Assembly: GCA_000165425.1 (NCBI GenBank) | Contig: CT868030.1 | Span: 434,001-498,000, forward strand | Source of the DNA: Paramecium tetraurelia | Lineage: Eukaryota | Direction: 5' to 3' | DNA: 64,000 nt | In this document: in pieces, positions 1 to 53,558 of the stretch | How the letters are laid out: every line of letters begins with the position of its first letter | Numbering within the stretch: the stretch's first letter is position 1 | Notes under the pieces: model-generated | The model's database searches: none | The model's input: only the letters and a program-made list of their open reading frames with translations | Told to the model about the DNA's origin: nothing | Position numbers and translations under genes: made by a program

Positions 1-3000
1 ACGCAAACCTTAAAGTTTACTTTTTAGAGGCTAATATAAATCCAGCACTTTTTACTGAAAATCCCAATCTTAAATAGATTATCCCTTCAGTTGTTGAATA
101 AACTTTAGACATAATTTTAGCAATTTAAAATAATCATTAATATTAGTTGGGAACATTTGAAGAATTAATAATTGAATGATATTGATTTCATAATTAAAAT
201 ATATTGTATAAATTATAAAGCATCAAATCTTCTTTATCTTTACTTATCTCCTTAAGAGATTAGAAATTTTGGAAAATCCCTTAGGAGTCCAAATAATATT
301 CTCTTTAGGTTTCTGATAATAAAGGAATAATATCATAAAGTGGGAATCTATAATGAATTATCTAGTATTTACAATTAGTTTTATAATCCATACTAAATGA
401 CTAGATCTAATTCCTCTTCACGTTTTTGTTGAGATAGTTTAATAGCTAAATCTTTAATATACTTTTCTTTATTATCAGCTACTGTTAACATCACTTGATC
501 TATTAAATCTAACTAAATATTAACACTCTTAGTACAGTTAATTATGTTTCATTTAAATTGTGATCCAATTCTAAAGTCAAGCGTTCGTGCAAATCCATAT
601 TTAAATATTAAACCTGATCGATTGCATTTTTTGCAATAAACATCTAAGCAATCAATTTTTGCATTTTCTAATCCAATTTACTTGCATTATCAACACACTT
701 TGAAAAGTCATCCACTTATAAATTAATCTTTTTATATTAGATATTAATACACAAAACTCTAGTAATGCATGTTTCAAATGGATAAATGAAATTTCTTATG
801 CCTAATTAATGACAATAAGTTTACTATCATGAATCATTAACTATAATATAATTACAAATTCATTACAATTTTTAATTATCCATTTGGTCTAACCTGTATT
901 TCAGGATATTACCCATCAAGTTAATTAGCTTTTAAAAATTCACAACTTTAAAGTTGGTTTTATGGTGGATCTAATTGGGCTAGAGTAATTGTAATAGCAA
1001 CTTAATTCACAACAATAACCATCTTAATTTGAGTTTAAGTGACATAAAATAATAAGTCTTCCCAGAAATAGCTATCGGTAAGTTGTTCAAATTCAGTTAA
1101 AATGGGGATAAACTATCCATTTTATTTCATGAGAAGAGAAAAGGTCTTCTCATATTAAAATAACAAAAAGGTTTCATTTATGTTGCTAGTCACATTCAAA
1201 GGAGAAATAAACTAATTACCAAATGGAACCAATTAATTGTTTTAAAATTAATAAAATTAACCATTTTTCAATTTTAGTTGTTTAATTTCTGCTTTCAATT
1301 TCTAATCTTCAATGTTGCATTCAGAATTTGTAACAATAAAATAATAACTTTACACTCCAAATACTCTTTCAGGCTATGGCAAGTTATTTATTGAAGCTTT
1401 TAAAAACATTGACTATTTCTTTGTGTGATCAAAACCATAGATTTGGATGACAAAATTAACAATGTTTGAGGAATAGTTGTAAATATTTCTGGAAAACGTT
1501 TTCTAATTAAAGAACCCACTTGTTTGAGACTCAACCTTTTCTTCTATTGTGACATTTTAGTTTCTTTCATTCAAGGGAACAGAAACGATTAGCTCTTCCT
1601 TATATTGATGCCATGCTATGGAGTTGCCTATTCCTGTTGATAGTTGTTCTAATTCACTCAAAAAATGCAAAGTCAATTTGAGATCACTTTCCATCATATC
1701 ATAGTTCAAATTTTTATTATTTATTGAAAGCACAGCATATTGACCATTATTGTTATGGATCACAAAATATCTACCTGATAATGAAATCAAGATTTTAGAA
1801 TCTACATTAAAAAATAATAATGATACCATCCCAAGCATAAGACGTTTAAAATGAAAATATTTTATGTTGTCTACTCATAACGGTCCATTCTTCTTTTTTA
1901 TTTGTGAGTTCTTAAGTAAATTCAGTCAATGTACAAATCACATTTTTACCACTTGTAGATAGATACATCAAATTAGATTAATCAGTTTATTTGTTTAATA
2001 CTTCATATTATTTTAATTGCTCTTAAGAAATATTGGTTAGTTTCTTAAGTAATCCAGTGTCATCTACAAAAGTTTTACTTTAATTTAATGTCAGTGAACA
2101 AACAAAAGTATGATGAAAGCAATATTTCTATAAGATTTCAGAAGCCTGTAGTAAAAACAAGCCATGAGTGGTCGCAACACATAAAAGATTTGACTTCAAT
2201 CTATTGGTTGTTATTGTATTGATCTTAATTTATTTATCAACATCAGACACATTTTTCAAATCTAAAAGTATCACATAATCAAATTTCTTTTATTGCTTTC
2301 CTATCAGATATAAAGCATAAATTTCTGATGATCTTGTATGACCAATATATGTTTAAGAAGGAAAATTAGAATGGCTTATATGAACAAGTTCTTTAATTGG
2401 AATAGGAGGTTTGAATCTATTAATTTCCATTCCATTCAAAGAACTCCATAAAGTAATATAGTTTTCCGTAACTGTGACTATTTAAAAGTCGTATGGGTCA
2501 TATGCTATTGATAAGATCTCTTATCCATTATTGGCAGTCATTAATTGCTTTCCTTTTTTAGACATTAAAAATTTAAATGTTGGTTATTCATTTGCTGTGT
2601 CTGCATTCCAACATGCCATTGTACCATCTAAACTGCTGGCCACAAGACGAGGTCTGTCAAATTAGTTTTATTTATATGATAGCATCTAATTGATACCTTT
2701 TTGATGATATCCCTTCATTGTTTTTACAATTAGATTCTGCTTCAAATCTATAATCTTTACTCCCTCACCTCCTACTGCTATATATTATGAGTCGATAAAT
2801 TCTAAACATTTATTTGAAACACCAATAGGTCCATTTGTTATTAGATCTGAATAATCAGAGCAATATTTGTAGGAATACAATTTATCAGATGTCAGAATCA
2901 TTATGCTATTCTACAAATATAAGGATTAATCATTAAAAAGTCTATAAATAATCTAATTGTCGTGAAATTTCAATTGTTTAACTTCCTACACTCTATCAGG

Positions 3001-3180
3001 TTCAATTAATGAAACATTTATTGCTCTCAAGCATGTCTTTTTTTCATAGTCCCAAATCTATAAAATTTGATTTGTTGTATAAAGTAAAAGGAATGGTTAT
3101 ACTAAATGTACTTCTACATACCTAATCCTTATGTTAGACTTTATATCAAATAAAAATTAGAAATTCGGTATTAAATACAT
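1..3180 (-). CDS. Large WD40 beta-propeller protein resembling TSET/TPLATE complex subunit TTRAY2 (TWD40-2); runs off the left edge
   Basis: Code-6 frame from ATG 3180: MYLIPNFQFLFDIKSNIRIRYVEVHLVQPFLLLYTTNQILQIWDYEKK..EVKQLKFHDNQIIY..KCLEFIDSQYIAVGGEGVKIID..PRLVASSLDGTMACWNAD..IKINTITTNRLKSNLLCVATTHG..ISLSGRYFVI. Block order matches remembered plant TWD40-2 motifs. Confidence 0.65.
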
Positions 3181-3187
3181 AAATTAA

Positions 3188-3985
3188 TCAATAATTTTAT
3201 TTTTCATCGCTAACTTGAAATAAACTATCCTCTAATACACTCTTTTTGCTAGCTAAATTCTAATCGAATGAATATTCAGGATCAAATAAATTCTATTCTC
3301 CTCTATTATAAAACTAACTACTATGAATAGACATGAATTCTGTAAGTTTTGATGGCTTCATACTCGCTCTAGATGCCTTAACTTGATAAAATAATTAAAG
3401 GTTGAAAACATCCTTATCTTTCTCTAATAATTAAAGTATTTCTAATTCTAAATGAGGACTCTACAATTTAGATTACAATATCTTCTTTATTTTTTCTTAT
3501 AAAATTTGCAAAGGTTACACTTCTTAAATTGGGATAGTTTATATTCCTTAATCAATGGTTTATTTTTTTGGAAATGGAACAATTACAATCTCCTCGCTGA
3601 TTTTTTGGCACTCCTTTTTCTGTTCTTTCATAATAGTTGGGATTTCTTCCTTTTTAATATTTTTTTTTATTGGTGTTTTATCTAGAATTGATTTTATAAA
3701 TTTGAGTAAATTTAAAATCATATTAGACTCTTTATTTGCTATTTTTAAGATATCAACCTTCATTGAATTGTCTAATTTCGAACAATAATGAGCAACTTAA
3801 GTTAAAGTTTCTAAACGAGACACGACTGTTGAGTTTTTTTTAAATTATGGAATTTCTATTTCAGGAAAGTATCTTCGGAGTAGACATAAGAAATGTCTTC
3901 CATCTGACATGCTTTCAATGTTACTTGCCTTCATTTGTGGACATTTCTCATTAACCCACCTTAGGAGTCCCAATCTCACACTCAT
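3188..3985 (-). CDS. Calponin-homology (EB1-like CH) domain protein, 265 aa, intronless
   Basis: MSVRLGLLRWVNEKCPQMKASNIESMSDGRHFLCLLRRYFP... has CH-type LLxWVN and SDG motifs. The 798-nt frame closes at TGA 3188-3190. Confidence 0.7.
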
Positions 3986-4140
3986 CCACTTCAAAGTTTT
4001 TATATTATTTATTAATAATTAAACTAAATTAACTTATAAGTTTACTTGTATCTTTTAATTCATTTTTTATTCAAAAATTCACAATTTTACTTTTTAGATT
4101 AATTGTATAAAGAAAAAAATAAATAAATAAAATAATTATT

Positions 4141-10774: not shown

Positions 10775-12338
10775 ATGCAACCAAATGATGAGGATGCACA
10801 GAGATTAAAGGCCAAGTCAGACTTATAATCTGTAACATATATGCAGTGAACAAGATCTTTTTATTAGTGTCAATTATAATGGGCTTTTGTTTTTTATTTA
10901 ATTCGAATATAACATTTGGATGGGATTACAAAATAATTATTGTATATGCATGTACAACATAATTCGCATTTATGATTTCGAAATTGCTTTCCAGTAAAGG
11001 GTATTTGCTATACAATTTTATATTAGCATCAACTCTTATTGTTGTTTTGCTGTACTTGAAAGTGCTATTTTAATAGCTTATTTATTGGGGATCGTCTATA
11101 ATAAAGAAGTCTCCCCAATAAACATTAATTTCATTAGCTATACTCTTCTTATCCTATAATTCGTAATATTGGCAATAACAGTATTAATAAGCAGATAAAG
11201 CTTCGAGAGTGATGCTTAAGATCAATCTAAACAAATCTAAGAAATAGTATATAATTAAGATATCTATATAAGTTAATTGCTGCAATAAAAAGCATAGGTT
11301 CATTGCAGATTGTATTCTTAAGTTTGAAATGGAGTCAATAAATCAATTGGGGTTGGATGCAAACTCTAGTGATTGTTTGGTTTTGCATCGGTACTATGAC
11401 ATTGATTGAGGTATGTTTAATTGTAGATCTGATGTTAAAGTGTTGCAATAATGAACTTTAAAATAAAAAGCAATTAAGTAATAAATATGTTTATTCCTAG
11501 TTTATGGAGGTGCTTGGGTGAACATTGTGATATTAGGATTTATTATCGATACAGGATTAACATTTTTAGGATTAGGTTTGTTATTGGACTATAATGTTGG
11601 ATAAGTAAATTTATATGGTTTCATTGCTTCTATTGTATACTATTTATTTCAGATATTTTTCTATTTGAAAAATTAAGAAGAATTAATGTAATAACATCTA
11701 TAAGTTGTAGCTAATTTTTAAATTTATCAGAAGTCTAGTAGCCAACTCGGCCATCAGAATAGCCTAATGAACAAGTTACATTAAAAGACAGGATTAAATA
11801 GATTCATAGAATTAGCATTAGCAAAGTTCCATAATTTATGGTGAAATTGTCAGCCACTTATTTTAGAAAGTAAGAAATAAATGAGAATCAAAAAAATTAG
11901 AATGAGTTAGGTTCATCTTAGGATAAGAAATTTCGATCAATTAGCTTTTCAGAAATAAAAAAATAAAATGAAATAAAGAAAAGTCCATCTTCGGATTTAG
12001 ATGGGGATTTATCTAAGAAATTTGATTAATTACTATCATCTCCACGTCTAAAATTAGAAGTCAGTGAAAGTATGGCTCCAGAATTATCAAGCAGAGGTCA
12101 ATAGAAATAAAATGCACTATGTCTCGTTTGCTATGAAAAAGAAAGCAATATGATTAATTAACCTTGTGGTCATGGAGGATTTTGTTAAGAGTGCTCAGAA
12201 TAATTATTATCAAAAAGTAATTACTGTATGTTATGTCGAAAACCTGTGACTCACACATTACTAGTGTAAGGAGTTGAGAATCGTGAAAGTTTAGTTGAAG
12301 TTGTAGGAATATATTAAGGAGGATAGAAATAAAATTGA
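10775..12338 (+). CDS. Multi-pass membrane protein with C-terminal C3HC4 RING finger (TMEM185-like TM region); probable E3 ligase
   Basis: Hydrophobic segments such as LQIVFLSLKWSQQINWGWMQTLVIVWF. RING: CLVCYEKESNMINQPCGHGGFCQECSEQLLSKSNYCMLCRKPV. Confidence 0.8.
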
Positions 12339-25496: not shown

Positions 25497-26970
25497 ATGA
25501 AAATCGTCATCCTTTTGGTTTTAGTGATGTCATCGTTAGGAAGGCTTACACAGAGAAATGACCTGTTTGGAAAAGAACAGATAGTCAAGGCCGCTATTAC
25601 AGAGTGGTTTACACAGAAACTAGATCACAATGATCCAACTTCACAAGAAGTGTTTAAACAAAGAGTTCACATTTATAATGAATATGTAAAAGATGACTAG
25701 CCTGAAGCAGTTATTTTATATATCTGTGGTGAATGGACATGTAATAACGAAGTACTTATCTTATAGGTGATGGAATTGGCAAGGGATTAACATTTGATGC
25801 TGCCTAATAATTGAATGCTGTTGTACTAGTTTTGGAACATAGATATTATGGTTAATCACAACCATTTGAGGATTGGAGTACTCCAAATTTAAAGTATCTC
25901 AATATCCACTAAGCATTGGATGACATAGCCTATTTTATCACTAGCATTAAAGCTAATGGAAACTACAATATTAAGCCAGACACTCCATGGATCCACCTTG
26001 GAGGTTCATACCCAGGAGCACTGAGTGCTTGGTTTAGATACAAATATCCTCATTTGACTATTGGAGGTTTGGCATCCTCTGCAGTTGTTAGGGCTGTTGC
26101 TTGTTATCACGAATACGACATGCAAGTTTATCTTTCTGCCTTAGAGAGTTCAACTGAGTAAGCTAAATTTTAACATAATTTTAGATGTGCGGATAGAATT
26201 CAGCAAGTAAACCAAAAGATTGAGGATGAATTGGCTAGAGATCCTGATGCTATCAAGGCTGCATTTGGTGCTTCAGAATTATAAGATATTGAATTCTTGT
26301 CTATGATTGCTGATATCTATGCTGGTATGGTATAAGGAAGAAAGAGATCAAAGATGTGTGATAGACTAGCAAAAGGATCTACTGTAGAGGAATGGTTTTT
26401 AGAAGTAAAGGACATGGCTAGAGAAACAGTTGATTAGGAGAGTTACGGTTCAGAATTTTTAAGGGATATCACTATTGACTTTTCAAAGAGTTCAAGATAA
26501 TGGACATATCAAACTTGCATTGAAGTTGGCTACTTCTAAACTGCTAATGTAAATAATCAATAATACATATTAAGCCCAATGCAGAACAATCTACTAGATC
26601 ATAAGAGTTAGTTCTTGATTTCTTCAGATAGTTGTGTGAGTACTCCTATGACATCCCCATATTCCCTGATGAAGATAGAACAAATGCTTATTTCGGTGGT
26701 CTTGATATCAATGTGGATCATCTCATATTTTCAAATGGCTCTGATGACCCCTGGTAACATGCTTCAATAACAAAATGGAAGTAAGGAAAAGAATATGATG
26801 TCAAATATATTAAATGCAAGGACTGTTCACATTGTATTGATCTTAGGGCATCCAGTCCAGAAGATCCCCCCGAATTAACTAAAGCTAGACAAGAAATCCT
26901 AGCAACATTCTAATAATGGATTAACGAATATTAATTGCAACAACAATAAAAAGCTACGATAATTGAGTGA
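25497..26970 (+). CDS. Secreted/lysosomal serine carboxypeptidase, peptidase family S28
   Basis: Signal peptide, FTQKLDH, LEHRYYG, GGSYPGALSAWFRYKYPHL..G.LASSA, FSNGSDDPW, SHCIDL. Confidence 0.92.
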
Positions 26971-27023
26971 ATAATAATATATATAGACATATAGATAGAT
27001 ATATATGAAAAGTAATAGGGTTA

Positions 27024-27545
27024 TCAATAAGGCATGAAATGGCCTCTTTGGTGATGACAACACTACTAAGTTGGTCTTCTGAAAGATCTCTGCATCATTC
27101 TCATTTGTAAGAATTCTTGCCATAATTATTCTAATTCACAAGGACAAGGTTGATAGGGTTAATGATAGTACATTTGAGGTTCCTCTTATCGATATTGCTA
27201 TCTTAAGGGTGATGCGCATAGAGATTTACTTTGGGACTATTATTGAGGTGATTTTTATTATTGCCATGAACTCATCCTCTTGTGTCCTGCCTATTATTCT
27301 AACTATTTTTATGGTTATTGGATCATTTGATTTAAGTGTTTGTGACTCTCCTCCTCTAGAAAGCGCGAATTCTCTTGGATGTAGATTTGGCTTTAAGCTA
27401 ATTGAGCAAATTGTGGACTCTATTCTTCAACGCTCATTATTGAACTTTATAGTGGAAATCTGGCAAATGAATGGCTTAATTAGGTTTGGTTCAATGAAGA
27501 CCCTTAAGTATAAGACATTCCCACAAATTGATAATTATTATTCAT
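27024..27545 (-). CDS. Q-rich hypothetical protein, 173 aa
   Basis: Intronless 522-nt code-6 ORF from ATG 27545 to TGA 27024. Confidence 0.55.
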
Positions 27546-32893: not shown

Positions 32894-35800
32894 TCATTAC
32901 ATAAATATAAAAATTGAAAAGAGCAGCATTCTAGTAAAAGTGTCTGTATTAGGGTCTGTAGTGTTGGTGGGTTGTGGAGGGGTTATGGTCGTAGTGTTAC
33001 ATTTTTAGCAAAGATTAGTTTCAGCATTCCAACTATAAGTATTTAAACTTTATTCTAAACAGTTACTGGCTGATAATTGATTAGGGCTTCCAGAAGAACA
33101 TCCAGATGAAGTCATTACACAAACAGTGATACTCTTTTCATCAAACGAATAAACTGGTTTACAGATGCTTCCATTTGCTACAGTGGCACAAGTGTGATTA
33201 ATGCAAGAAGTAACTTCGATTCCATTTTGAAGGGAGGCTTGAAAATGGCATGAGTTTTGCTTGGATTTACAGGCAACCAAATCAGATTTAGCTTGCTCAC
33301 ATGTGGTCATTAAAGTACATGTCCCTTTCTAAGGATCTGCAACTGAAGGTGTAAAAACACAGATGCCATCCAATCCGCCAGAATTGCATGCAGTTTTAGT
33401 TTTGTATGTTTAGCATTTATTTTTTATGATACAAATGGTGCCATTTGAAATGCATGCTTTTTTATGTTATTTGCACAATTCTGTTGTTGTATCTTAGTAA
33501 TCTTAACAAGATTTAACCCTGCAGGATTTAATTCCTTAAGTTTATCCATCTTAAAAACCATAAACACAATTACCATCAGTTCCATGATGACATCCTGCCT
33601 CTTTGTATGATGAACACAATCCAATAGGGATACAATTAGTTCCATTAGTTGTACATTTAGTAGTTGCAACAAAACTATTGCATGAGGTATATGATGTAAT
33701 ATCGATTCCCATGTTTACAGTTGCATCTGTGCATTTTCTTTATCTGCAAGATTCTTCAGCCCATATACAAAAGCCATCAGTACCTCCAGAGAGACAGGAT
33801 GTTTCAGTCTAGTAATAATTGCACTCAGTCTTTGAAATGCAGCCCTAGCCATCAGAAATACATTGACTAGAATATGATTAGCATAGTTCTGTAGTAATAG
33901 CATTAAAATCAGAACACTTCTTAAAGGGAGCACAAGTGTTATCAATCCATCCACATTCTCCATCGATTCCAAGTGAGCAACTAGTCTAATTAATGTATTT
34001 GGAACATTGGGAAATGGGAATACAGGTTTAACCATTACTAGTACATTTATTTGAGTGTTATTAGCATAAAGTACGAGATGAGCTTTAGATATCAGCGCAT
34101 TATGAATAAGCAATGCATGATTATTAAAACCATAAGCATACATTTCCTGCATAATCTTTAGTGCATTTTGCTTTGACAACAATGTCCTTACAAGTATAGT
34201 TCTGATTGACACACCCTTTACCATTGGAGAAACACTTGCTAAGAAACTCTTGGCATTTCGCATCAGTAGTGAATTCCTTGCTTGCATCATTGCAATCTAA
34301 TTTTCTGCAATAGGTCTTCTCCCAAATGCAAAGACCTCCCTCATCTGTAGTTTTGGCAGAAGAACAAGAAGTAGAAGTAGTGTAGGATGAACATGCTCCA
34401 ATTGGTATGCACCCTTTCCCCTTTGAAGTACATTAACTAGACAGTCGTTGACAATCCTCATGAGTTAATACGCTTTCAGATGCATCCTCGCATTTCCAAT
34501 CTCTACACTACCCAATATTTGAGGCCTTATTGAGTTCCCATTAGCACCTGCCTATAGTAGTGTAGACAGGAGTATTTACACATACTGATTGAGATGAAAA
34601 AACACTGCATTTAGTTGACAATTATGTGCAATTTCCGGTATATAAGCATTGCGATTTCTTTTAACATGCTTACTACGTTTAAATGTCTTCGCAAGAAACA
34701 CTACTGACACAACCATATCCATTAGTTACACACCCTTCCTTAAAGATATTACATAGTTCATCACTGTCATAGTTGTTTGGTGCTTCACTGCATTTTAGGG
34801 CAGCACAAGGAGCAACTGAGTTACTGCTTTGACCTTTACAGGGTCTATCGGTTGCTGAGAATAGAGGACAAGACTTGGTGGTTCCACTGAATAAAGAACA
34901 AGGTTAAGGCAATACACAGCCAATTCCCTTCGTTACACATCCGCTTAAGAATTGACTGCATTCTTTATCAGTCTTTGCTGTAGTGTTATGCGAACAATTT
35001 CTTACGACACAATTCATCAAAGGAGTGGCTGCAATATCATTCCAACAAGGTTTAGTTCCATTAGATCCCTTTAGTTAACTGCACTCTAGTTGAGTACCTT
35101 GATAATCTGAACATTTTGCAGTCTAAACTATACAACCTCTGCCTTTGGTTACACATCCAGCTTAGAAGTCTTAACATTATGAATCTGTATTGTAAGTCTA
35201 ATTATCACTGCATAATCTGACTCTACACTATGAGATTGTGCTGGTGCTGTCATTCCAACAGTTTTTACCATTCCCAACAAATTTAGAACAAGTCAACTGA
35301 TTTCCAACATAATTATTGCAAGGGTCACTCTTATCAATACATCCTAATCCCTTTGTGACACATCCCTTCATGAATGCATCACATTGAATATCAGTAACAC
35401 TGATGGTATTATCATAACATTACTTCTATTCACAATATCCAAAAGAATCTTACCCTTTGCATTTGATTGAATTACCCACAAATGTCAAACAACTAGAACT
35501 AGTTCCTCTGTATTATGAACAAGTCTATGAAGCATCAACACAACCCTTGCCATTGGTTCTGCATCCTGGTAAAAATGAATCACATTCCAAATCTGTCATT
35601 CCACTTTAGTTTTAAGTACATGTTCTTTATACGCAATTACCTGAATCGAACCAACACCTGTCTCCAGCTGTAGTTCTTAAATTCTAACATTAAGTTTCAC
35701 TCACTCCCACATATAGATTACAAGAAATTTAAACTACATAACAATTCTAACCATCATAAGTACATGTAGACAAATGAATTCCACAATTTACATAATTGGG

Positions 35801-38800
35801 ATTCTCAATTGTATTTGAACAACTCCTATCTTCACATGTTCCTATATCATTTGTTTGTTTCCAACAAGGAGTGCCACCAATAGTTGTAGTAGATTAACAT
35901 GCTAATTTGGTGAATCCTGTGTATAAATTACATGAAGCTTGTTGATTTACACAGTCCACTCCATTATATCTACAACTAGCGAGATGTTATGGACAACTAA
36001 TAGCACTTGTAATATCTATTGTATTGCTACAAGTTCTGTCACTGCATTATGTAGATCCAGTCGCTGGAATCCAACATAGACCTCCTGAAGTCGTTGTTAC
36101 TTATTTACATGCTTCAGATGTGAATCCCACATATCCATTACAATTAGTCTATTGAATAACACATGATGAACCATTGAATCTGCATGTACTCATATGATCT
36201 AAACATTTCTAAGTAGTGGTTGCAACTGTCACATTAGTACATTACCTGTCTTCACATGTTCCAACTGAATTTGATGTTCTCCAACACTTAGTAACCCCAT
36301 CTGCCAATATCGCATCTTTACAAGCCTACTAAGTGAAAGATGTATATAAATTGCATGCTGTATGTGCATCAACACAAATAGTACCATTATATCTACAAGA
36401 AGATTTGTGAGCCTAGCAAGTAATTGAGTTTGAACTAGTTACTTTATCACTACATAATCTACTTTCACATGTTGTCAAAGCACTATTTTCCAACCAACAA
36501 TTCTCGCCAGAAAGTTTAATCGCTGTTTTACAAGCTGATTAAACAAAACTGGTATACGAAGTACAACTAGATTACTTGTCCACACATTTTACTCCATCAT
36601 AAACACAGCCATCAGAGTATTGAGTACAAAATTATTGTGAGAATGAATAAGGGTTTAACACACTCGTAACACTTGAACATGTTCTCGCCATGCAGGCTCC
36701 AATTGAATTTGATGATCTCCAACATAATCCAGTTGATAGACTTACTGCTTTCTCACAAGCATTGGGCTAGAAGTTTAAATACGAACTGCATAAATTCTAC
36801 TTTGCAACACAATTCGAACCACTAAAGATGCATCCAGATAAGAATTGATCACAATCACTTTAATTGGATGCTGATGTTAAATGTGTACAACTTCTTGTTT
36901 AGCATGTACCTGTGCCACTTGCTAAATAACACTTACCACCAGAGATTGTCGTTATCTATTAACAAATTTAATAGTTCAAACCAATATATGATGTACATGA
37001 AATTTAAGCATCTATGCACACGAATCCATTAAACCTACAAGTTGACAAATATTCTGTACATTAATCATTGTTTGCAGGATTAATTACATCTGAGCAACTC
37101 CTATCCATACATGTACTTTTACGAACACAAGGATACCCATTGCCAATCAAGTTTGAACATTAAGCTTCATCTCCTTAAAATTAAGTGCATGGTTCTGTGT
37201 TTTCAATACATCCAATACCTTTTGTAACACATCCAGATAAAAACTATTCGCATTATTCATTCTTTGTTGATGCAGTATCTTATGCACATTCCTTATTTAC
37301 ACAGCTAGTTCCACTTATCCACCAACATTATTTTGTGTTATTTAAGCCTTTGAATTTTGAGCAGTCAGTAGTGTTACTTCCAGGATATGATGTACATGGT
37401 TCTGTTTGATCAATGCACCCTAATCCTTTTGATACGCATGTACTTAAGAATAATGTGCATTATTCATTTGTAGTAGCTGTTATGTTATCTCCGCATTTTA
37501 AATGTCTACATGGTCCAGTGGTTCCTGTATCCTAATAGCATTTAATTGTTCCATTTATTCCAGAATGCTGGGAACATGCTTCTTAATTGCCAGTATATTA
37601 ATTACAATCAGCAGATTTATCAATACAACCAGAGCTACCCTAAAATTTGCATCCACTCAAAAAGTCATCGCATTATTTTTAATTGTTTGCTGTTGTATTG
37701 TTTGTGCATAGCAGAACTTCACAAGCTCCCTTTACACTACTAGTGCTAGTGCATTTCAACCCATTCCCATAGAAATTGATACAAGTCTCTGTTGTTCCTT
37801 AATACTAATTACAAGGGACTGTGGATGGGAGACATCCCTATGAATTTGTAACACATCCTGCTAAAAACTTCTTGCACTAATCATTAGTTGTATATGATGA
37901 AGGAGCATCAGTACATAATCTAATTCTGCAAACACCATTAACCCAAAAACAAGGTTAGCCATTTCCCAAATTATTATTACACAAACTAATGCTTTTAAAA
38001 TATGAGCAATTGGTTTTGGTAACACAAATTTGATTCCATTAACATGAAGCAGTAGCCTTACAAGTGAACTCTTTAATAGTAGATACACAATCTGTTTTTT
38101 TCACACACCCTTCGCCATTTGACAAACAATCACCTTAGAATGACATACACTATTCATGTGTCTTGTATTCAGAAGGAGCATCAGTACATACCAAATTTGA
38201 ACAATTTCCCTCAACTGTGTTTTTAGAATAACATCTTCCATCAGACCCTTCGTATTTAGAACATGTTGTTGATGTTCCATTATATGTTGAACATAATTTT
38301 CTACTACTTAAACAATTCACTCCATCAGTTACACAACCCTTTTAGTATTCGTTGCATTCTCGATCTGTTTTTAATTAAGCTTCTTCACAAACTCTTGCTT
38401 TACACCCATTTGTACCTAAAGTACATCTACCATCACTTCCTATGTACTAATTACACTCCTCAGCTGTTCCTGTATAGAAACTACATAATTTCAAAGAAGT
38501 ATCACATCCTCTTCCTTTGGTTATACATGAACTCAAATATTCCTTGCATTTTTCATCTGTATTATAGGTAGTAGGTGCATTTTCACATTTCCTTGACTAA
38601 CATTTATTTGATGATCCATTGTCACATAATCCCTCAGAACCTGTCATCTTATTGCAATCATTTCCAACATAACTATCACAAGTTGGCAATGGTTTCAACC
38701 AACATCCCTTACCTGTTGTAATACATCCAAACTGATATCTTGCGCATTGCTCATCACTATTATAATCACTAGGAGCAGACTAGCACTATCTTGCACCACA

Positions 38801-39436
38801 ACCACTTGCTGTCCTCGCACAATAACCATCACTTCCTATCATTTGATTACAATCAGTAATTCCATATGAAGAGCATTCGCTTCTAATCTCCACACATCCC
38901 TTGCCATTTGTAAAACATCCTATTTTAAATTTATTGCAATCTTAATCCGTTTTCAATTCACTACTTGCTTCTATGCATCTTAAATCTCTGCATTAGTTGT
39001 TCTCCCATTTACATTAACCTCCTTAAATATTGATATTCTGATTACAAAATATCTAATTCTTATATTCACCACAATTCTGTGGATCCTAACACACATTCCC
39101 ATTTGATGTACATTATAATGAGATCTCTTGACAAAAATCATTTGTACTGCCAATATAAGCAGAACAACCACTAAATTATTCACATTTATTATCAACAAAA
39201 GCACATCCTTTCATCTTTGGACATGTTGCTTAATCAAATGATCTGCAATATACACTTATGGTATCCTCATTTTCTGTTTAATCATTTTGGACACATTTAT
39301 CATTATCCCATCGACACCCAATGTTTGCGCAATCAGACTTCGATTTTATTTAACTACAAGTGCAAGATTCCTCCACATTTATCAAAACTGCTAAATATTG
39401 ATTAGCTAATATGAGTAAAAAATTCAATCTCAACAT
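32894..39436 (-). CDS. Large cysteine-rich Paramecium surface-antigen-family protein, about 2180 aa, probably GPI-anchored
   Basis: 6543-nt span divisible by 3 and apparently intronless. Signal peptide, many repeats with GCVTKGxGC and CxW motifs, T/P-rich spacer, hydrophobic C-terminus. Confidence 0.88.
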
Positions 39437-39706
39437 TTGTTTTATTCTATATATATTAAATAATTATTTCGAGTTAACTAATATTAATTACTATATTCAT
39501 TTCATTTTACAAATTCTCTTCCATTTCTGACATTGTATATTATATAAATTTAACTTATTTTGACTTATTCTCCTCTGACCTATATTTATGACTTCTTTAT
39601 TTATCAGTTTTTATCAGCCTCCTAGAATTATCAATTAATATTTATATATAAACAGATTATACATCTACATTATTGTACAAGACTATTTTATTATTAATAA
39701 TATACA

Positions 39707-40185
39707 ATGAGTTCAATATCTAGAATTAAAAAAGAACTGTAAAATCTTCAAGATGAACCTCTGAATGGGTTCTTGATCAGCATTTTGGACGACAATAATT
39801 TATTTCATTGGAAAATTTGTTTTTCTGGACCCCAAGGATCCTCTTATGAAAATGGAAATTTTACTCTAGATGTATTGTTTCCAGAAGATTATCCATTAAA
39901 ATCTCCAAAAATATTATTTCTGACTTCTATCTATCATTTAAACATTGATTATAATACAGGGTAAATTTGTCTAGAGATCTTGGGATAAAATTGGTCTCCA
40001 AACCTAACTATTAGAAAGTGTATGAAGTTTTAATCTACATTTTAGTACTCTTAAGTATTCTAGCATTGCTTTATGATCCAAATCCTAATAGTCCACTACT
40101 TGAAGATGTTAATACCATTTTTAAGAATGACAAAGCAGCTTATTTATAAAAAGCAAAGGAATGGACTAAAAAGTATGCTAATTGA
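39707..40185 (+). CDS. Ubiquitin-conjugating enzyme E2 (Ubc4/5-like, divergent)
   Basis: RIKKEL, GPQGSSYENG.F, FPEDYPLKSPK, YHLNID..GQICLEIL..WSP, DPNPNSPL, AKEWTKKYA. One intron. Confidence 0.92.
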
Positions 40186-40505
40186 TTAGTCATTTTATAT
40201 ATTTAATCTAATCCTTTGATAATCAAATTATAATGTAAAAATCTTAATTTATTTCTAAACTAAAGATGTTTGAAAAGTAATAGAAATATAAAAGATAAGT
40301 GTTTTTTTCAAAAGACAAAATTAAATTATACCCAATATTTATCGTATATAAAATATATTAATGGGTATTATCAGGATATGATTTTTCTCTGCTTTGTTTA
40401 TCCATAATTTGACTTAAGTAATAGAATATAAGAAATATTCAATAATTTAAATATTTTACTAATTAATTGTAATAAAATGAAGGTAAATGATTGATTATAA
40501 ATAAT

Positions 40506-47521: not shown

Positions 47522-48983
47522 TCAATGTCTCCATATTTTAACCCTTCTATCCTTGCCCCCACTTCCAGCTTTCTCTCCTCCTATTGGAGCCCAATCAACA
47601 GCATAGACTTCATCAGCATGTCCTGGCAAATCAAAGGCCAACTTCTTTTTTTACAAAGACCATAATTTCAAGGTAGAGTCCTTGGAAGCTGACAACATAT
47701 ATCGAGAATCACTAGACCATGAAACTTAATAAACTGAGCCTACATGACCTCTCAGAGTAGCAATCCAATTTCCATTGTACCCATCCCAAATTCTCAAGCT
47801 CTTATCAAAACTAGCTGAAACGATATATCTTCCATCTGGTGAGAATTATACATGATTCACTTATTATTGATGTCCAGTCATTCTAACCTTTGGTTTCGAT
47901 GATGTATATTCCCACAACATCAAAGTTTGATCATCACTCGCACTGACAAGTCTCTCGTTTTTACCACTTAACATCTTATCATAAAGCACCTTAGCTTATT
48001 TCCTGTTGATTTCAATGTTTCCTTCACTAAAACAAGCACATCTTAGAGTGTAATCAGTATGCAGGGCAATAGAATTGACCCAATGGCCATGACCTTTGAG
48101 TTCTTAGACTCTTTTTCCTGATTTATTCCATACACCGATTGTGGTGTCTTCTGATGCAGTATAGATATATCCTTAACCACCCCAGAGCATTCTAGATTTA
48201 ATAAGAGATGTACTTTGTAATTGCTTTTTAATGAGCATTGATGGATATCAAACAAGACAATGAAGTTCTGCTCCAGATTCTTACACTTCCATCTTTTGAT
48301 GAGGAAGCCACCAAGGTGCATTCTTCATCCAGATGCATTGGCTACCAGGCTATACTAGTTACCCATTTGGTATGTCCTATTAATGGTTACCCTTTTAATT
48401 GATTGGTTTCAACATCCCATATGCAAACTTAGCCATCATGACTACCAGAGGCTATGTATTTGCAGTCAGGACTCCATGCTAAGCACAATACCCAATTCCT
48501 ATGGCCTTTGAGTGTGGCAATTGGAGTTTCTGTCAACATATCCCATAATCTTATGGTTGTGTCACCACTACCTGTTGCCAAGACATCTCCGTGAGTTCTG
48601 AATTGAACACATAGCACAGGTTGTTCATGGCCTTCTAAAGCGGCTGTTTGACGGGTGATAGGCTGAATTCGAAAGAGTGATTAGGGATGGTATGTGAGAG
48701 AAAAGGTATTTTCCAGTTTGTATTCAGGATCTGAAGCGATTAACTAGTTTAATGTGTCGACCAATTCAATGTTATTGTGGAAAAAGGTGTAAACTTGATC
48801 TTCCTCAGTTTTGACCAATGATTATAAAATTTATTGCAATTCTTCTTTGGTTGTGTTCACTGAGAGTTCCAAGGATTTTTAGGCTTCCTCTCCATAAGGA
48901 TTAAATAGAGTCACGAATACTCTTGTATCAGGGGGGAGGAGAGTAATTGTATTAGTTTTTATCTTCTTCTTGGTTTGATCCAT
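47522..48983 (-). CDS. NLE1: Notchless/Rsa4 WD40 ribosome assembly factor
   Basis: YHPQSLFRI, SGSHDG, RMTGHQQQVNHV, DLPGHADEVYAVDW..GGKD..KIWRH*. One 22-nt intron at 48192-48213 restores the frame. Confidence 0.95.
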
Positions 48984-49005
48984 TTATTGATCACTATTAA
49001 AATTA

Positions 49006-49937
49006 ATGAATTAAGGTAATTAAGACAAGAGAAAATAAAGGGATTATGAAGATGAGGATTCAGAGGAAGAGGAAATCGAACAACCAATAAATGTGCATAA
49101 TAAGGGAGATATGGAAGAGGAAATTAATCTGGACTTTGTATTCCTCGATCCAAATCAAAAATAATTTCACTCTATCAAATCATTCATCAATGGCTATCTG
49201 GAGGGAATAAGCTTTAAATCCTCTGAGTTGGCCAACATCATTTGTGATCAAGTTGAATTGGGAACCATGGTCGGACAAGAAGACGAAGACAATGTTTTTG
49301 GTTTTACTACAATATTAAATATTGGTGAAATTAAGTAATTTAGAATTTAATCATCAATAGGAGCAATGCCATTGGTGAAATCCTGCATTATGTCGATACT
49401 AAATCACAACAATACAATAAGTAACATCAACAACTACAACACATCTTTTAAACACCCAAGAAAATAGGTTTATTTATAAATGAGAGGATTCTTAATTTGG
49501 CTCCACAACTCGTTCCCATTTTACACAACCAATTAGTAATTTCTTATTTCATTTTAGAAAGAAGACATCAATTGGTTATAAAAAGAAGACCCTTCCAATC
49601 CCCTCACCAATCTAGATTACTTACTCGTCATTACCAAATGTTTTAAAGATAATGACCAACAAAAACAAACACAAAAAGTAAACACTACTCTAAACAATAG
49701 AAATCTACTTCAGATCTGAATGATTTGATATTCTAAAAGTTCGAGGACTATGTCTTCTTGGAAAAGTCTGTAGTTTCATTTCGATTCCTGAGCGAAGGAT
49801 CAAAATAAACTCAATAGGTTTCTGACTATATGAAGACTGACCAAGAAGGTTAGATTTGCTATCGATTGATCTATCTGATACAGTTGAAGGATTACCTAGC
49901 ATAAATTGTGAATATTGAAAAATATGTATAATAATGA
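49006..49937 (+). CDS. BCCIP: BCCIP/Bcp1 family protein
   Basis: Acidic N-terminus, INLDFVFLDP..FHSIK, NVFGFTTILN, GLFINERILNLAPQLVP. Confidence 0.88.
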
Positions 49938-49996: not shown

Positions 49997-52704
49997 TCAT
50001 AAATTTAGATTTTCGAAGCACCCTTTGATCTTCTCTTTAGTAGCTGGCTTGATTATTACTCCGTCGAAACCTTCATTAATACTCTTTTCTTAGTCCTATA
50101 TGCTACAAAAAGCAGTTACAGCTACTACAGGAATTGCCTTTACCAATTATAATTCACATTCCATTTACCGAATGATTTAAACAGCCTCCCATCCACTCAT
50201 CAAAGGCATGTTTATGTCCATCAATATACAATGATAACCAGTGCATTTTCCACTACATTTATCCTATAATTTCTTAGAGATTTTTTCTATTGCTTACTTA
50301 CCATTAAGGGCAGTTTCTGTATAGAATCCCATTTCTTTTATTATGTGAGCAATAATATCAATGTTAAATTGCTCATCATCGACTATCAAAATGGTCTCAC
50401 AATTACATTGATCCTATCTCTTTTTAGGAATTTCAATTGACAAATCATTAGAATTGCTCCTTTTAAATATATTTATTGCAGCCAATTGATGACCTTTATT
50501 GTAATTTAGGACCTTCACAGACGCACTTTACGCATCTTAATATGGGATAGTCAATTATTACGATTTTTGTATCGAGGATTTCTCTTCAATATACCTTAGA
50601 CTAAAATAAAATGATGATCCACTATCCTTCACAGAATCAACAAATAATAGATTAGAATTTTCTGGGGCTAATTATCGGATTATTGATTTACAAACTGATA
50701 AACCTAAACCAACACCAACAGAATATTTTGATACTTTTTCATCTTCATCTGCAACATGTAACTATTTATATTTATACTAAACTTACTTTCTTCCTCAGAG
50801 TCACCAATTCATCCTCATCCATACCTAGACCACTATCTTTTATGTAAATTTCCAAAATATTCGAATCTTCTTACGACAATTAAGACTAGACCTCATCAAT
50901 AATTCCAAAGCAAGACGGAGAATTTTTCTTTTTTTTCACTTCTACAGTTATTCCACCTTAAATAGTAAACTTTATAGCATTCGTTAATAAATTCAATATA
51001 ACTTGACAAAACCTCTATCGATCTCCTTTCACTATGTATGCACAATTCTCAGGGATATCTAATTAATAACTCAACTATTTTCTATATATCTAATCTTTAA
51101 TTAAATCTACACATTCCGTAATAGCATTAATCAATTCAAATTTGTCTTCCCTCAATTTTAATTTATTGTCTAATAAATATCTGTAATCAAAAAAATCCTG
51201 CACTTTGAATAATTGCAATTTTGTGTATCTTAATGCACAAGCCAATAATTCTGACATCTCTTCTCCTTTTAATAATCTATCCTAACATTGTTTTATGTAA
51301 CCATACGCTGCATTCAAATTTGTTAGCATCTCATGAGATATTGATCTTAATAAATTCTTCTTGACTGATTCTAATTTTTTTAAACTAGTTTTCAGAAGAA
51401 CTGGATTCAATTCATGAACAAAAAATATTTGGAAATCGTCCTCTTCATCAAATAATTTATAATTTTCTATCACATGAATTAAGAACTTCATATCATGATT
51501 CATTGTTGATGGTGATGAATTTTGATTCTTTTGATTATTATTGTCCCTCAACATCTACTCAAAAGATAACTTACCACTTGTAGGTGTTGATGGCCTATTA
51601 ATACTGAGTCTATTTGATGATCTCTTCCTCTGTTTCTTTTTCGAACTTAATGTACACATATAGGGTTGATGCCTAAGCTCTACTTATAAGGATATATCAG
51701 CAGTATACTATTTTTTGAGTACCTATTCATCATCTTTCATTTTAAATGACGAAAAGAATTCCTATTTATATTATATCTTTTTATTGATTGGAGGGTTATC
51801 GCTCAAATTAAAAATCAACTACCTAGATCCACACTCTGGACTTAGAGCTTCCTTTTTATAATTCACTTTTCTTATCTTATACTAATCAATCTGCAATTCA
51901 TCGTCAAAATCTATAATTGATATTCCTTACTAATTCAATTCAGTTAATTGGAGATTAGATAAGAAATGCAATTATAATTTTTAATAATTTATGAATCTGT
52001 CAGGTGACTGATCAGTATCAGAATTGTTCGATCCCTCTAGTGTTAACGATAGATTTTCAAAGCTTTTATTTGAATAAAGCAACTAGCTTTTGTTTTTCTA
52101 GACAATACACATTGCCGATGGAATTGTATCTATTATAAGAAACAATGCTTAGAGTTTTGAATAAAATGACATTAGATTTCCTTCTCTTCGTATCATGTGT
52201 ATAATCATTATAAGAATAAATAATCCCAAACATTCATAAGATTTATCTTCAACTGATACTAGATACCCTCCCATGCATATTCCTAATGTTACCAATTTTA
52301 CTAATATTGTATAAGCCATGTTAAACTAAATTACATTAAATGTGGTGTAAATCAATAAAAATGAAGGGTTCGACATATAAAAATATAGACAATACCAATT
52401 AATGAGAATTATTTAACAAATTCTAATTATATGAGTCATGATAGCCTTACAAGAATGGTTCTTTTTGATGAGTATCCCCAAAAATAAATGTGAAAAGCAG
52501 TTAATACTTAGTTGAATATAAAGTTCCGAATCACTTTTGTTAATGATCAATTTTATTAAGATTATTATAAACGATATGAAAAGAGTTGGAATTTGAATCA
52601 GGTCCATCTCCATTTAGAATTCCTACTTTTTCCATGATTAATATTATTCTGATATGAATTTGTTGTAAGAGTTCTAAAAAGTCCTTATAAAATCACAAAG
52701 CATC
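49997..52704 (-). CDS. Membrane-bound hybrid histidine kinase (HisKA, HATPase_c, receiver)
   Basis: N-terminal TM helices, H-box RSISHEMLTNLN, N-box QVILNLLTNAIKFT, IKDSGLGM, GVGLGLSVCK. Receiver ILIVDDEQFN..ILMDINMPLMSGWE..VTAF..IIKP. Confidence 0.93.
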
Positions 52705-53558
52705 TTCAAAATTAATTAATAATATCATTAATATAATTTCAATCAATAGCAAATCCCTTAAACTCTTTAACCTTTTTTGAGCCCTCTCTTTATTATCCCG
52801 TTTAGAAATCACCTAAAATATATCTAATAAAAACTGGTTATACACAATATTCTCAAAATTTAATTCTCTGTCCTATTAAAATACAATCATTTTGTAATGA
52901 TCATCATCCTACACATTATGGGATGTTGAAAAATGCAAAAATATTGAATTTATTAAGTTGAAAAAAGAAAGGAAATATCATTTCAAATGGTAATTTCGCC
53001 ATTTTAGCATTCACAAGCTTATCAAATTTGTGGTTGAAGATCAGGAATAATGTAAAATGTATACCCATCCAAATAAATAGATACTTTGGCTAAATTTCTA
53101 AGAAGGAAATTATCCTAACAATTTTAAAGTTCATCACAGATTTTTGATTAATCATATAAAGAATAATTAATATTATAATCAAGAGTTTGTGATTTAATTT
53201 TTGCTCTTCTTTTGGTAAGTAGCATTGAATTTTCATAACTTATAAAAAATTACAAGACCATTTAATAATTAGACAAACATTTATTTATTTGTATTTCAGC
53301 TTATTATTAAATAGTACTTTACAATAAAGCCAATAAAAGTATGGATATTATAGAATGTACTTGGTGGTCTGCATGATATTGATTTCATTGAAAATATGCA
53401 ATATAAAAAGTACAAATTGAAGATAATTGAAATATTTTTACGGATTTTAAGTAATTTATTATTTTTGAAATCTAAATTTTATACAAATTTTGAAAACACT
53501 TTTTTTTAATTTATTCAAAATATTTATTTATTTAATATATATTAATATAATAATAAGA

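What the first reader, a model, noticed from the sequence alone, without database searches (positions are those of the whole stretch)
1..3180. Probable TSET/TPLATE coat subunit (TTRAY2/TWD40-2) in a ciliate
Seen: a WD40 protein of roughly 1000 aa or more. Its blocks align in order with my memory of plant TWD40-2: EVHLVQPFLL vs QLHPTHPWLV, VKQLKFHD vs VKQVKFYD, CLEF vs CMEF, LVASSLDGTMACWNAD vs LVSGGSDGLLVLWSAD, EINRFKP vs ELRRIKP, NRLKSNLLCVATTHG vs HPLQPHLVATGTNVG, SLSGRY vs SSSGKY. Established: TSET is an ancient, patchily retained adaptor-like endocytic coat studied mainly in plants and Dictyostelium. Inference: this ciliate may keep a divergent TSET pathway that automated annotation would call only a WD40 protein.
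Basis: partly seen in the sequence, partly recalled or inferred. Interest (0 to 1): 0.8.

Follow-up and report, generated by a model that had tools for sequence, protein, structure and literature searches.

The report
Paramecium TTRAY2 coat scaffold gene

Summary
A minus-strand gene (CDS 3180..188, six exons, five introns of 23-26 nt, ciliate code) encodes a 956-aa WD40 protein, or 965 aa from an upstream ATG at 3207.

The protein matches P. tetraurelia GSPATT00006070001 letter for letter over 904 residues. Hirst et al. 2014 (eLife, Figure 3-source data 1) list that accession as PtetTTRAY2.

Independent tests agree with the name. A ciliate profile aligns almost end to end with proteins anchored to the published Naegleria and Dictyostelium TTRAY2 (hhalign E 5e-54, 764 columns). 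Against beta'-COP it aligns only over the first propeller (E 3e-12, 219 columns). No COPI or IFT Pfam family is met.

RNA-derived contigs lack all five introns. They show that the public 916-aa P. tetraurelia model wrongly keeps intron 5.

The inferred "TSET pathway" is not shown. The 2014 tables list only TTRAY1 and TTRAY2 for Paramecium and Tetrahymena, and none of the four core subunits.

Verdict: correct identification, already known. The open question is what a scaffold without a core does.

The parts
188..3180 (-). TTRAY2 coding region, from the annotated ATG at 3180 to TGA 190..188. 956 aa once the five introns are removed.
   Evidence: model; identical to P. tetraurelia XP_001431615.1 over model residues 10-913; 97.8-99.1% identical to the 956-aa models of three sibling species.
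3181..3207 (-). Nine in-frame codons from an upstream ATG (MKNKIIDQF). Probably not translated, because they lie inside the upstream neighbour's reading frame, whose TGA is at 3190..3188.
   Evidence: The 5' end of the transcript was not resolved.
1827..3180 (-). Exon 1.
1802..1826 (-). Intron 1, 25 nt, GTA..TAG.
   Evidence: Left out in contigs of runs X3 and X10.
867..1801 (-). Exon 2.
841..866 (-). Intron 2, 26 nt.
751..840 (-). Exon 3.
728..750 (-). Intron 3, 23 nt, GTA..AAG.
536..727 (-). Exon 4.
513..535 (-). Intron 4, 23 nt.
373..512 (-). Exon 5.
348..372 (-). Intron 5, 25 nt. The public 916-aa P. tetraurelia model retains it and so ends early.
   Evidence: the C-termini differ from model residue 914 onwards. 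(left out in X3 and X10 contigs).
188..347 (-). Exon 6, including the stop codon TGA at 190..188.
   Evidence: This C-terminus is conserved in the 956-aa models of P. primaurelia, P. octaurelia and P. pentaurelia.
2134..3138 (-). First beta-propeller, roughly residues 15-349 of the 956-aa protein. Limits are approximate.
   Evidence: hhalign against beta'-COP residues 14-302. PDB hits to the N-terminal propellers of beta'/alpha-COP.
996..1827 (-). Second beta-propeller, roughly residues 452-720, spanning intron 1. Limits are approximate.
   Evidence: the family profile aligns these residues with beta'-COP ~340-549. The printed alignment was cut off there.
191..1235 (-). C-terminal third (residues 641-956), holding the end of propeller 2 and the presumed alpha-solenoid. 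This is the part that tells TTRAY2-type proteins from COPI.
   Evidence: an HMM of this part hits 15 of 24 labelled proteins, including the dictyostelid orthologues of DdisTTRAY2 (37.5-43.6 bits), and 0 of 5 COPI or generic WD40 proteins.

Best explanation
The gene is TTRAY2 of Paramecium tetraurelia (GSPATT00006070001). It is the ciliate orthologue of Dictyostelium TTRAY2 and plant TWD40-2. It is expressed, spliced at five tiny introns, and encodes 956 aa.

Shown here: its identity; full-length collinear homology to TTRAY2-type proteins; a layout collinear with beta'-COP (two beta-propellers followed by a C-terminal region); and transcription from the minus strand.

Inferred: like the B-COPI pair (alpha-COP with beta'-COP), it probably pairs with TTRAY1. 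Together they would form a beta-propeller/alpha-solenoid scaffold on a membrane, with the N-terminal propellers facing the bilayer or cargo.

The published survey found TTRAY1 and TTRAY2 in Paramecium and Tetrahymena but none of the four core subunits. In other lineages TSPOON and TPLATE are usually the easier subunits to detect. I therefore think it more likely (about 55%) that ciliates keep the scaffold without the canonical TSET tetramer than that a complete but unrecognisably diverged TSET exists (about 25%). The most plausible site of action is clathrin/AP-2 endocytosis at parasomal sacs, but that is a guess.

Confidence in the identity is about 0.9. Confidence in the mechanism is about 0.4-0.5.
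For: Identity. The spliced product is identical to P0192 (XP_001431615.1, 'uncharacterized protein GSPATT00006070001') over model residues 10-913. Hirst et al. 2014 Figure 3-source data 1 lists GSPATP00006070001 as PtetTTRAY2, 916 aa. The PtetTTRAY2 row of their alignment prints the same N-terminal residues as P0001 residues 10-138.

Independent family tests:
- A Paramecium+Tetrahymena profile searched against 1.84 billion representatives gave 232 hits at E<=1e-3. They include NAEGRDRAFT_68453, which is the published NgruTTRAY2 (E 1.7e-12).
- They also include Tieghemostelium (3.1e-11) and Dictyostelium citrinum (2.8e-7). The D. citrinum N-terminus matches the printed DdisTTRAY2 row.
- hhalign of the ciliate profile against a 9-sequence set anchored on these gave probability 100%, E 5.4e-54, 764 columns, query 17-923. 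Against beta'-COP it gave E 2.8e-12, 219 columns, first propeller only.
- The HMM of the C-terminal third hits TTRAY2-type proteins but 0 of 5 COPI or generic WD40 proteins.
- No COPI or IFT Pfam family reaches its cut-off.
- The tree groups follow taxonomy: ciliates including the heterotrich Fabrea 97*, Heterolobosea 100*, stramenopiles 100*. That is what one vertically inherited family would give.

Architecture. The family profile, with the Paramecium protein as first row, aligns with beta'-COP 14-782 over 665 columns (E 1.3e-40). The best solved relatives are beta'-COP and then alpha-COP. Hirst et al. report the same for Dictyostelium TTRAY1 and TTRAY2 (section 7).

Expression. Contigs of runs X3 and X10 span 222..3176 and 243..3167 with exactly the five introns left out. 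In two oligo-dT RNA-seq runs, 153 and 184 reads were laid on 1..3600; over the gene (bins 241..3240) every read has its first mate on +, which indicates minus-strand RNA. Depth is 0 at all five intron places in both runs.

Core subunits. All 10 'Paramecium' and all 25 'Tetrahymena' entries of the table were read. Only TTRAY, COPI and AP rows occur.

Role of the subunit elsewhere. DdisTTRAY2 co-precipitates equimolar with the TSET core. TWD40-1 and TWD40-2 cross-link in the plant complex, and the TTRAY/TWD40 propellers are proposed to lie near the membrane (passages). Parasomal sacs are the sites of clathrin/AP-2 endocytosis in Tetrahymena (abstract).
Against: - The two-propeller plus solenoid layout therefore rests on profile alignments only, and the solenoid part was cut off in the printed output.
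- TTRAY2 versus TTRAY1 was not tested here, because no TTRAY1 sequence was available. That label rests on the published table.
- Ranking by E-value alone is not clean. Generic WD40 arrays (P0098, 3.8e-9) outrank the Dictyostelium orthologue (2.8e-7), and a true beta'-COP is not far behind (1.9e-6).
- The C-terminal HMM does not hit NgruTTRAY2 itself.
- With NgruTTRAY2 as phmmer query, the Paramecium and Tetrahymena proteins are not among the 30 best session proteins. Other ciliate-type proteins are.
- In the tree, beta'-COP sits on a 2.0 branch in an unresolved fork next to the ciliates.
- The language-model look-up cannot tell the protein from IFT80, IFT140 or beta'-COP; all score 0.94-0.95.
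- Absence of the core rests on searches made in 2014 and on a 2022 ciliate survey that I could not read.
- Nothing here bears on partners, location or function in the cell. RNA depth is low, about 1-10x.
Confidence: 0.85

Rival explanations
1. Ciliates have a complete TSET, and this TTRAY2 docks on a TPLATE/TSAUCER/TCUP/TSPOON tetramer. The core would have diverged too far for the searches of 2014 to find it.
For: Both scaffolds are kept, and TTRAY2-type proteins occur in two ciliate subphyla (Fabrea, Tetrahymena, Paramecium). Wherever it has been studied, TTRAY2 sits in a stoichiometric complex with the core. Ciliate proteins diverge fast: this one is only about 15-20% identical to non-ciliate relatives.
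Against: Hirst et al. searched with iterated HMMs, BLAST and tblastn (methods passage) and list no core subunit for either ciliate. In algae, TSPOON and TPLATE are the subunits most often detected and the TTRAYs are the sporadic ones (passage). Detecting only the TTRAYs is therefore the unexpected pattern if the core were present. A review cites a ciliate survey for frequent loss of TSET.
Confidence: 0.25
2. The protein is a TTRAY-family scaffold but not a strict TTRAY2 orthologue. It could be a TTRAY1-type copy or a ciliate-specific paralogue.
For: I had no TTRAY1 sequence, so the 1-versus-2 split was not tested here. TTRAY1 and TTRAY2 share their architecture, and both have beta'-COP as nearest relative.
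Against: The published table assigns different Paramecium genes to TTRAY1: four models of 807-943 aa on neighbouring accessions. Tetrahymena TTRAY1 is 1613 aa, against 1055 aa for TTRAY2. The Tetrahymena relative found here is 1046 aa. The anchors reached by my profile are published TTRAY2s.
Confidence: 0.06
3. It is a divergent COPI (alpha- or beta'-COP) paralogue, an IFT-type protein, or a generic WD40 protein with no link to TSET.
For: The best solved relatives are beta'-COP and alpha-COP. The language-model neighbours include IFT80, IFT140, IFT122 and beta'-COP at 0.94-0.95.
Against: COPA/B second-propeller and TPR families, and all IFT propeller families, are absent at E<=1. A true beta'-COP among the hits scores 290 and 277 bits on the two COPA/B families. 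The ciliate profile matches beta'-COP over the first propeller only, but matches TTRAY2-type proteins over 764 columns. The C-terminal third matches no COPI or generic WD40 protein.
Confidence: 0.03

Closest known systems
PtetTTRAY2 (GSPATP00006070001) of Hirst et al. 2014, eLife 3:e02866
   Same: It is the same gene. The sequence is identical over 904 residues, and the printed alignment row matches.
   Different: The 2014/GenBank model has 916 aa because it reads through intron 5 (348..372). RNA-derived contigs and the sibling-species models support 956 aa.
Dictyostelium TTRAY2 (XP_637150.1) and Arabidopsis TTRAY2/TWD40-2 (NP_197859.4)
   Same: Collinear homology along nearly the whole length to proteins anchored on Dictyostelium and Naegleria TTRAY2. 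Both have beta'-COP as nearest solved relative.
   Different: It is shorter: 956 aa against 1122 and 1377. It is about 15-20% identical to non-ciliate relatives. In Dictyostelium and plants the protein is a stoichiometric part of a complex with the four core subunits; no such core is listed for ciliates. No Arabidopsis sequence was available to my tools, so the plant comparison was made by eye on the printed alignment.
B-COPI scaffold: beta'-COP and alpha-COP
   Same: The same order of parts. The family profile aligns with beta'-COP residues 14-782, and the first-blade motif is shared.
   Different: It fails the COPA/B Pfam families. The ciliate profile matches beta'-COP over only 219 columns. 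The C-terminal third is not recognisably COPI.
IFT-A / IFT80-type beta-propeller plus solenoid proteins
   Same: The same broad protocoatomer class, with similar language-model features.
   Different: No IFT propeller family is hit at E<=1. No IFT protein appears among the named hits.

Membership tests
TSET subunit TTRAY2 (TWD40-2) | Full-length homology to TTRAY2 proteins that were shown, or published, as TSET subunits | tested here: met
   hhalign of the ciliate profile against a set anchored on NgruTTRAY2 and orthologues of DdisTTRAY2: E 5.4e-54, 764 columns. The anchors were tied to the published entries.
TSET subunit TTRAY2 (TWD40-2) | [quoted passage not shown] | tested here: met
   (score 445) against (score 106, first propeller only); the C-terminal HMM hits 0 of 5 COPI or generic WD40 proteins. 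Caveat: the COPI profile had only 2 sequences, no alpha-COP profile was tested, and the tree does not resolve where COPI attaches.
TSET subunit TTRAY2 (TWD40-2) | Two N-terminal beta-propellers followed by an alpha-solenoid | tested here: inconclusive
   The profile alignment is collinear with beta'-COP 14-782, and the PDB profile hit covers beta'-COP 313-785. No structure model could be made, and the printed alignment stops inside propeller 2.
TSET subunit TTRAY2 (TWD40-2) | Distinct from the paralogue TTRAY1 | not tested
The label comes from Hirst et al.'s table, which assigns other Paramecium genes to TTRAY1.
TSET subunit TTRAY2 (TWD40-2) | Physical association with TPLATE, TSAUCER, TCUP, TSPOON and TTRAY1 | not testable with these tools
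   This needs purification. The published tables list no core subunit for Paramecium or Tetrahymena. No genome was held for a search of my own.
TSET subunit TTRAY2 (TWD40-2) | Action at the plasma membrane in endocytosis | not testable with these tools
   No localisation or phenotype data for any ciliate TTRAY turned up in searches (25 of 47 papers were listed).
COPI outer coat (alpha-COP / beta'-COP) | COPA/B second beta-propeller (PF04053) and COPA/B TPR (PF23953) above their Pfam cut-offs | tested here: not met
   Neither family is hit at E<=1 in the Paramecium or Tetrahymena protein. A true beta'-COP scores 290.5 and 277.2 bits.
Intraflagellar transport WD40 proteins (IFT80/122/140/172) | IFT-specific propeller and TPR Pfam families | tested here: not met
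   None is hit at E<=1. The only likeness is in language-model features.

The most novel reading that the evidence does not exclude
Ciliates keep an expressed, conserved TTRAY1/TTRAY2 scaffold although the TSET adaptor tetramer is gone. This would be a free-standing outer coat without its original inner layer. It would either be re-wired onto another adaptor, such as AP-2 with clathrin at parasomal sacs, or be used in a ciliate-specific membrane process.
Probability: 0.45. Interest if true: 0.55.

Novelty: already known. Interest (0 to 1): 0.28.

Why it matters
As an identification it adds little. The gene has carried the name PtetTTRAY2 in a supplementary table since 2014, although GenBank and UniProt still call it uncharacterised.

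Two modest points remain. First, the public P. tetraurelia model is truncated by a retained 25-nt intron; the real product is 956 aa. Second, ciliates seem to keep both TSET scaffolds without any reported core subunit. Paramecium and Tetrahymena are tractable by RNAi, tagging and uptake assays at parasomal sacs. They could therefore show what a TTRAY pair does on its own, which bears on how outer-coat and adaptor layers of vesicle coats evolved and can be uncoupled.

Tried and rejected
Each retry came after the stated wait. As a result there is no model and no fold search.
- No whole genome is held for this window, so TPLATE, TSAUCER, TCUP, TSPOON and TTRAY1 could not be sought. I also had no permitted query sequences for them.
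- Word-indexed homologue searches gave little. One search found 2 proteins. One search found only the query's own cluster. One search (46-sequence profile) returned 20 hits swamped by generic WD40 arrays.
- The look-up of sequencing runs: no RNA holder listed among the indexed runs. I laid two raw oligo-dT RNA-seq runs, and two contig runs whose kind is not on record.
- In the raw reads no read showed an intron as a deletion. Reads are 58 nt and the listing threshold is 3 reads.
- The transcript's 5' and 3' ends were not resolved.
- Richardson & Dacks 2022 (Traffic; a ciliate trafficking survey) and Bashline et al. 2015 (TWD40-2) are not held. A preprint search found nothing. The 2022 paper may already state the TSET status of ciliates.
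- A text search of the supplementary alignment for four Arabidopsis motifs found nothing, because gaps break them. I read the row instead. One supplement look-up repeated an earlier one, and part 337 held other rows.
- The search of earlier findings returned nothing three times.
- The mixture-model tree did not finish in 300 s. The tree reported is the quick LG+G4 one.
- I considered and rejected a fusion with the upstream ORF 3188..4063. The only candidate intron (3238..3210) leads into a stop, and a contig reads straight through it.
- I considered and rejected reading the 23-26-nt segments as IESs rather than introns. They are present in this (macronuclear) DNA, absent from the contigs of runs X3 and X10, and have GT..AG ends.
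- COPI and IFT membership was considered and rejected.
Full report
**What is there**

Read with the ciliate code (table 6), the minus strand of the first 3.2 kb holds one long gene broken by frame changes. Candidate GTA..TAG introns of Paramecium size sit at each change.

A 956-aa Paramecium primaurelia protein, found with exon 1 as query (98% identical), guided the model. The gene has six exons: 3207 or 3180..1827, 1801..867, 840..751, 727..536, 512..373 and 347..188. It has five introns of 25, 26, 23, 23 and 25 nt and ends at TGA 190..188. The product is 965 aa from ATG 3207, or 956 aa from ATG 3180.

ATG 3207 lies inside the reading frame of the upstream neighbour, whose TGA is at 3190..3188, only 7 nt before ATG 3180. 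The annotated start at 3180 is therefore the likelier one, but the 5' end was not resolved.

**Transcription and splicing**

Contigs of two public runs whose kind is not on record span 222..3176 and 243..3167. Exactly the five predicted segments are left out, 122 nt in all. The window's DNA contains these segments and they have GT..AG ends, so I infer that the contigs derive from spliced RNA.

In two raw oligo-dT RNA-seq runs, 153 and 184 reads were laid on 1..3600. Over the gene (bins 241..3240) every read has its first mate on the + strand, as expected for a minus-strand RNA in the usual stranded libraries. Depth is 0 at all five intron places in both runs, and about 1-10x elsewhere.

**Which organism and which gene**

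The spliced product is identical to P. tetraurelia XP_001431615.1 ('uncharacterized protein GSPATT00006070001', 916 aa) over model residues 10-913. After that the public model reads through intron 5 and stops early.

The 956-aa models of sibling species are 99.1% identical (P. octaurelia), 98.0% (P. pentaurelia) and 97.8% (P. primaurelia). Two P. sonneborni copies are about 92% identical. A 2200-aa Paramecium surface-antigen frame elsewhere in the window fits the genus.

**It is already named**

Figure 3-source data 1 of Hirst et al. 2014 (eLife; I read the supplementary table, parts of the supplementary alignment, and sections 7 and 9) lists GSPATP00006070001 as PtetTTRAY2, 916 aa. It also lists PtetTTRAY1a-d, TtheTTRAY1 (1613 aa) and TtheTTRAY2 (1055 aa).

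The PtetTTRAY2 row of their alignment prints the same residues as the window's protein. The Tetrahymena relative I found is 1046 aa, which is TTRAY2-sized.

All seven Paramecium strings are present once each and in order. All seven recalled Arabidopsis strings can be read in the AthaTTRAY2 row, one of them a letter off.

In the published alignment the first three pairs share columns. Two later ones are placed differently there.

Some blocks are also shared with COPI: the HP..PW block, and SLSGRY, which aligns with SPNGRF of beta'-COP. On their own they would not separate TTRAY2 from beta'-COP.

**Independent tests of the family**

Pfam gives only sub-threshold generic WD40 matches. No COPA/B or IFT family is hit.

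Against solved structures:
- With exon 1 as query, the 20 best rows are all beta'- or alpha-COP N-terminal propellers.
- With the ciliate-only profile, 20 of 20 hits are coatomer.
- With a 46-sequence family profile, the best hit is beta'-COP (E 3e-49, chain residues 313-785), followed by other beta'-COP chains. Alpha-COP scores about 1e-31, behind a few generic WD40 proteins.
- None of the 60 listed chains is named as a TSET or TPLATE-complex subunit.

A Paramecium+Tetrahymena profile was searched against 1.84 billion representatives. It found 232 proteins at E<=1e-3, many of them short fragments. Of the long hits I could name:
- One is NAEGRDRAFT_68453, the published NgruTTRAY2.
- Three are dictyostelid proteins whose N-termini match the printed DdisTTRAY2 row.
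- The rest come from Amoebozoa, oomycetes, a brown alga, a chrysophyte and the heterotrich ciliate Fabrea.

Of 25 long hits scanned with Pfam, 1 is a true beta'-COP, 3 are generic WD40 arrays, and 9 show the COPA/B second propeller below its cut-off.

Profile against profile, the ciliate pair matches the TTRAY2-anchored set over 764 columns (E 5.4e-54). It matches beta'-COP over 219 columns, first propeller only (E 2.8e-12). An HMM of the C-terminal third hits 15 of 24 labelled proteins, including the dictyostelid TTRAY2 orthologues. It hits none of 5 COPI or generic WD40 proteins, but it also misses NgruTTRAY2.

A quick maximum-likelihood tree of 30 rows gives groups that follow taxonomy, as one vertically inherited family would. 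Beta'-COP sits on a long branch whose attachment is unresolved.

Some results weigh against a clean picture:
- E-value ranking alone interleaves generic WD40 proteins with true relatives.
- With NgruTTRAY2 as query, the Paramecium and Tetrahymena proteins are not among the 30 best session proteins.
- The language-model look-up cannot tell the protein from IFT80, IFT140 or beta'-COP.

**Architecture**

The family profile, with the Paramecium protein as first row, aligns with beta'-COP residues 14-782 over 665 columns (E 1.3e-40). Propeller 1 is about residues 15-349. An insert follows. Propeller 2 starts at about residue 452. The printed alignment stops at residue 717, so the solenoid part is inferred.

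**How it probably works**

In Dictyostelium, TTRAY2 co-precipitates equimolar with the four core subunits and TTRAY1. It is predicted to have two propellers plus a solenoid, with beta'-COP as closest match (Hirst section 7).

In the plant complex, TWD40-1 and TWD40-2 cross-link. Their propellers are proposed to lie near the membrane, as in COPI (Yperman et al. 2021, passages). By homology, the Paramecium protein most likely pairs with TTRAY1 as a scaffold on a membrane.

Whether it sits on a TSET core is the open point. Every Paramecium (10) and Tetrahymena (25) entry of the Hirst table, and every 'PtetT'/'TtheT' label in the table and alignments, is a TTRAY, COPI or AP entry; none is a core TSET subunit. 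Their methods included iterated HMMs and tblastn.

In algae, TSPOON and TPLATE are the subunits most often found and the TTRAYs are sporadic (Dacks-group 2025 paper, passage). A TTRAY-only pattern therefore looks more like real loss of the core. I put a scaffold without a core at about 55% and a cryptic complete TSET at about 25%.

Clathrin/AP-2 endocytosis at parasomal sacs is the obvious place to look (Elde et al. 2005, abstract). Nothing here tests that.

**Literature**

In the held library I found no paper whose main text discusses ciliate TTRAYs. In one search, 25 of 47 papers were listed, and no paper with TTRAY or TWD40 also held Tetrahymena or Paramecium; one general review held TPLATE once and Tetrahymena once. 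I read passages of three reviews.

Richardson & Dacks 2022 is cited for frequent loss of TSET. It is not held and may already cover this.

**Verdict**

The pathway inference is unproven.

Noticed in passing
window 348..372 (-): The public P. tetraurelia protein model (916 aa) retains this 25-nt intron and ends in a short out-of-frame tail. Contigs of runs X3 and X10 (inferred to be RNA-derived) and the sibling-species models support a 956-aa product with about 50 more conserved residues.
   Followed up: yes
window 3181..3210 (-): The upstream minus-strand ORF (3188..4063, 291 aa, no Pfam hit) ends at TGA 3190..3188, only 7 nt before the TTRAY2 ATG at 3180. The untranslated ends of the two genes must therefore overlap coding sequence. 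Six RNA-seq molecules begin at 3209 in one run.
   Followed up: partly
window 1..214 (+): A plus-strand transcript contig (1939 nt in run X3) runs to 214, and raw reads of the opposite orientation cover 1..120. A convergent neighbour's 3' end therefore overlaps the TTRAY2 stop codon at 188..190.
   Followed up: no
window 32897..39496 (-): A 2200-aa open frame rich in cysteine repeats matches the Paramecium surface antigen domain (PF01508, 463 bits, 8 stretches).
   Followed up: no
window 11433..12335, 25733..27034, 39242..40216, 48057..49154, 50748..52724, 56835..58001: Other open frames with Pfam matches: RING finger, peptidase S28, ubiquitin-conjugating E2, a generic WD40 propeller, a histidine-kinase-like ATPase, and an MFS/sugar transporter. 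None is trafficking-related.
   Followed up: no
Hirst et al. 2014 table (not in the window): PtetTTRAY1a/c and PtetTTRAY1b/d carry neighbouring accession numbers and add up to about 1730-1750 aa, against 1613 aa in Tetrahymena. They look like two duplicated TTRAY1 genes, each split into two models. TTRAY2 is listed once.
   Followed up: no
protein P0150: A 948-aa TTRAY2-like protein is filed as 'uncharacterized protein LOC126316933' of the locust Schistocerca gregaria, on a 343-kb contig. Animals are reported to lack TSET, so it may come from a protist in the sample. It groups with an unnamed Logan protein (99*, long branch) in the tree.
   Followed up: no
window 3428 and 3434: The RNA-seq reads of runs X19 and X20 show T>C and A>G here, in the upstream neighbour (4 of 6 and 3 of 3 reads). 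This is probably a strain difference.
   Followed up: no
protein P0007: A 741-aa TTRAY2-type protein occurs in the heterotrich Fabrea salina and groups with the Paramecium and Tetrahymena proteins (97*). The scaffold is therefore kept in both ciliate subphyla.
   Followed up: partly
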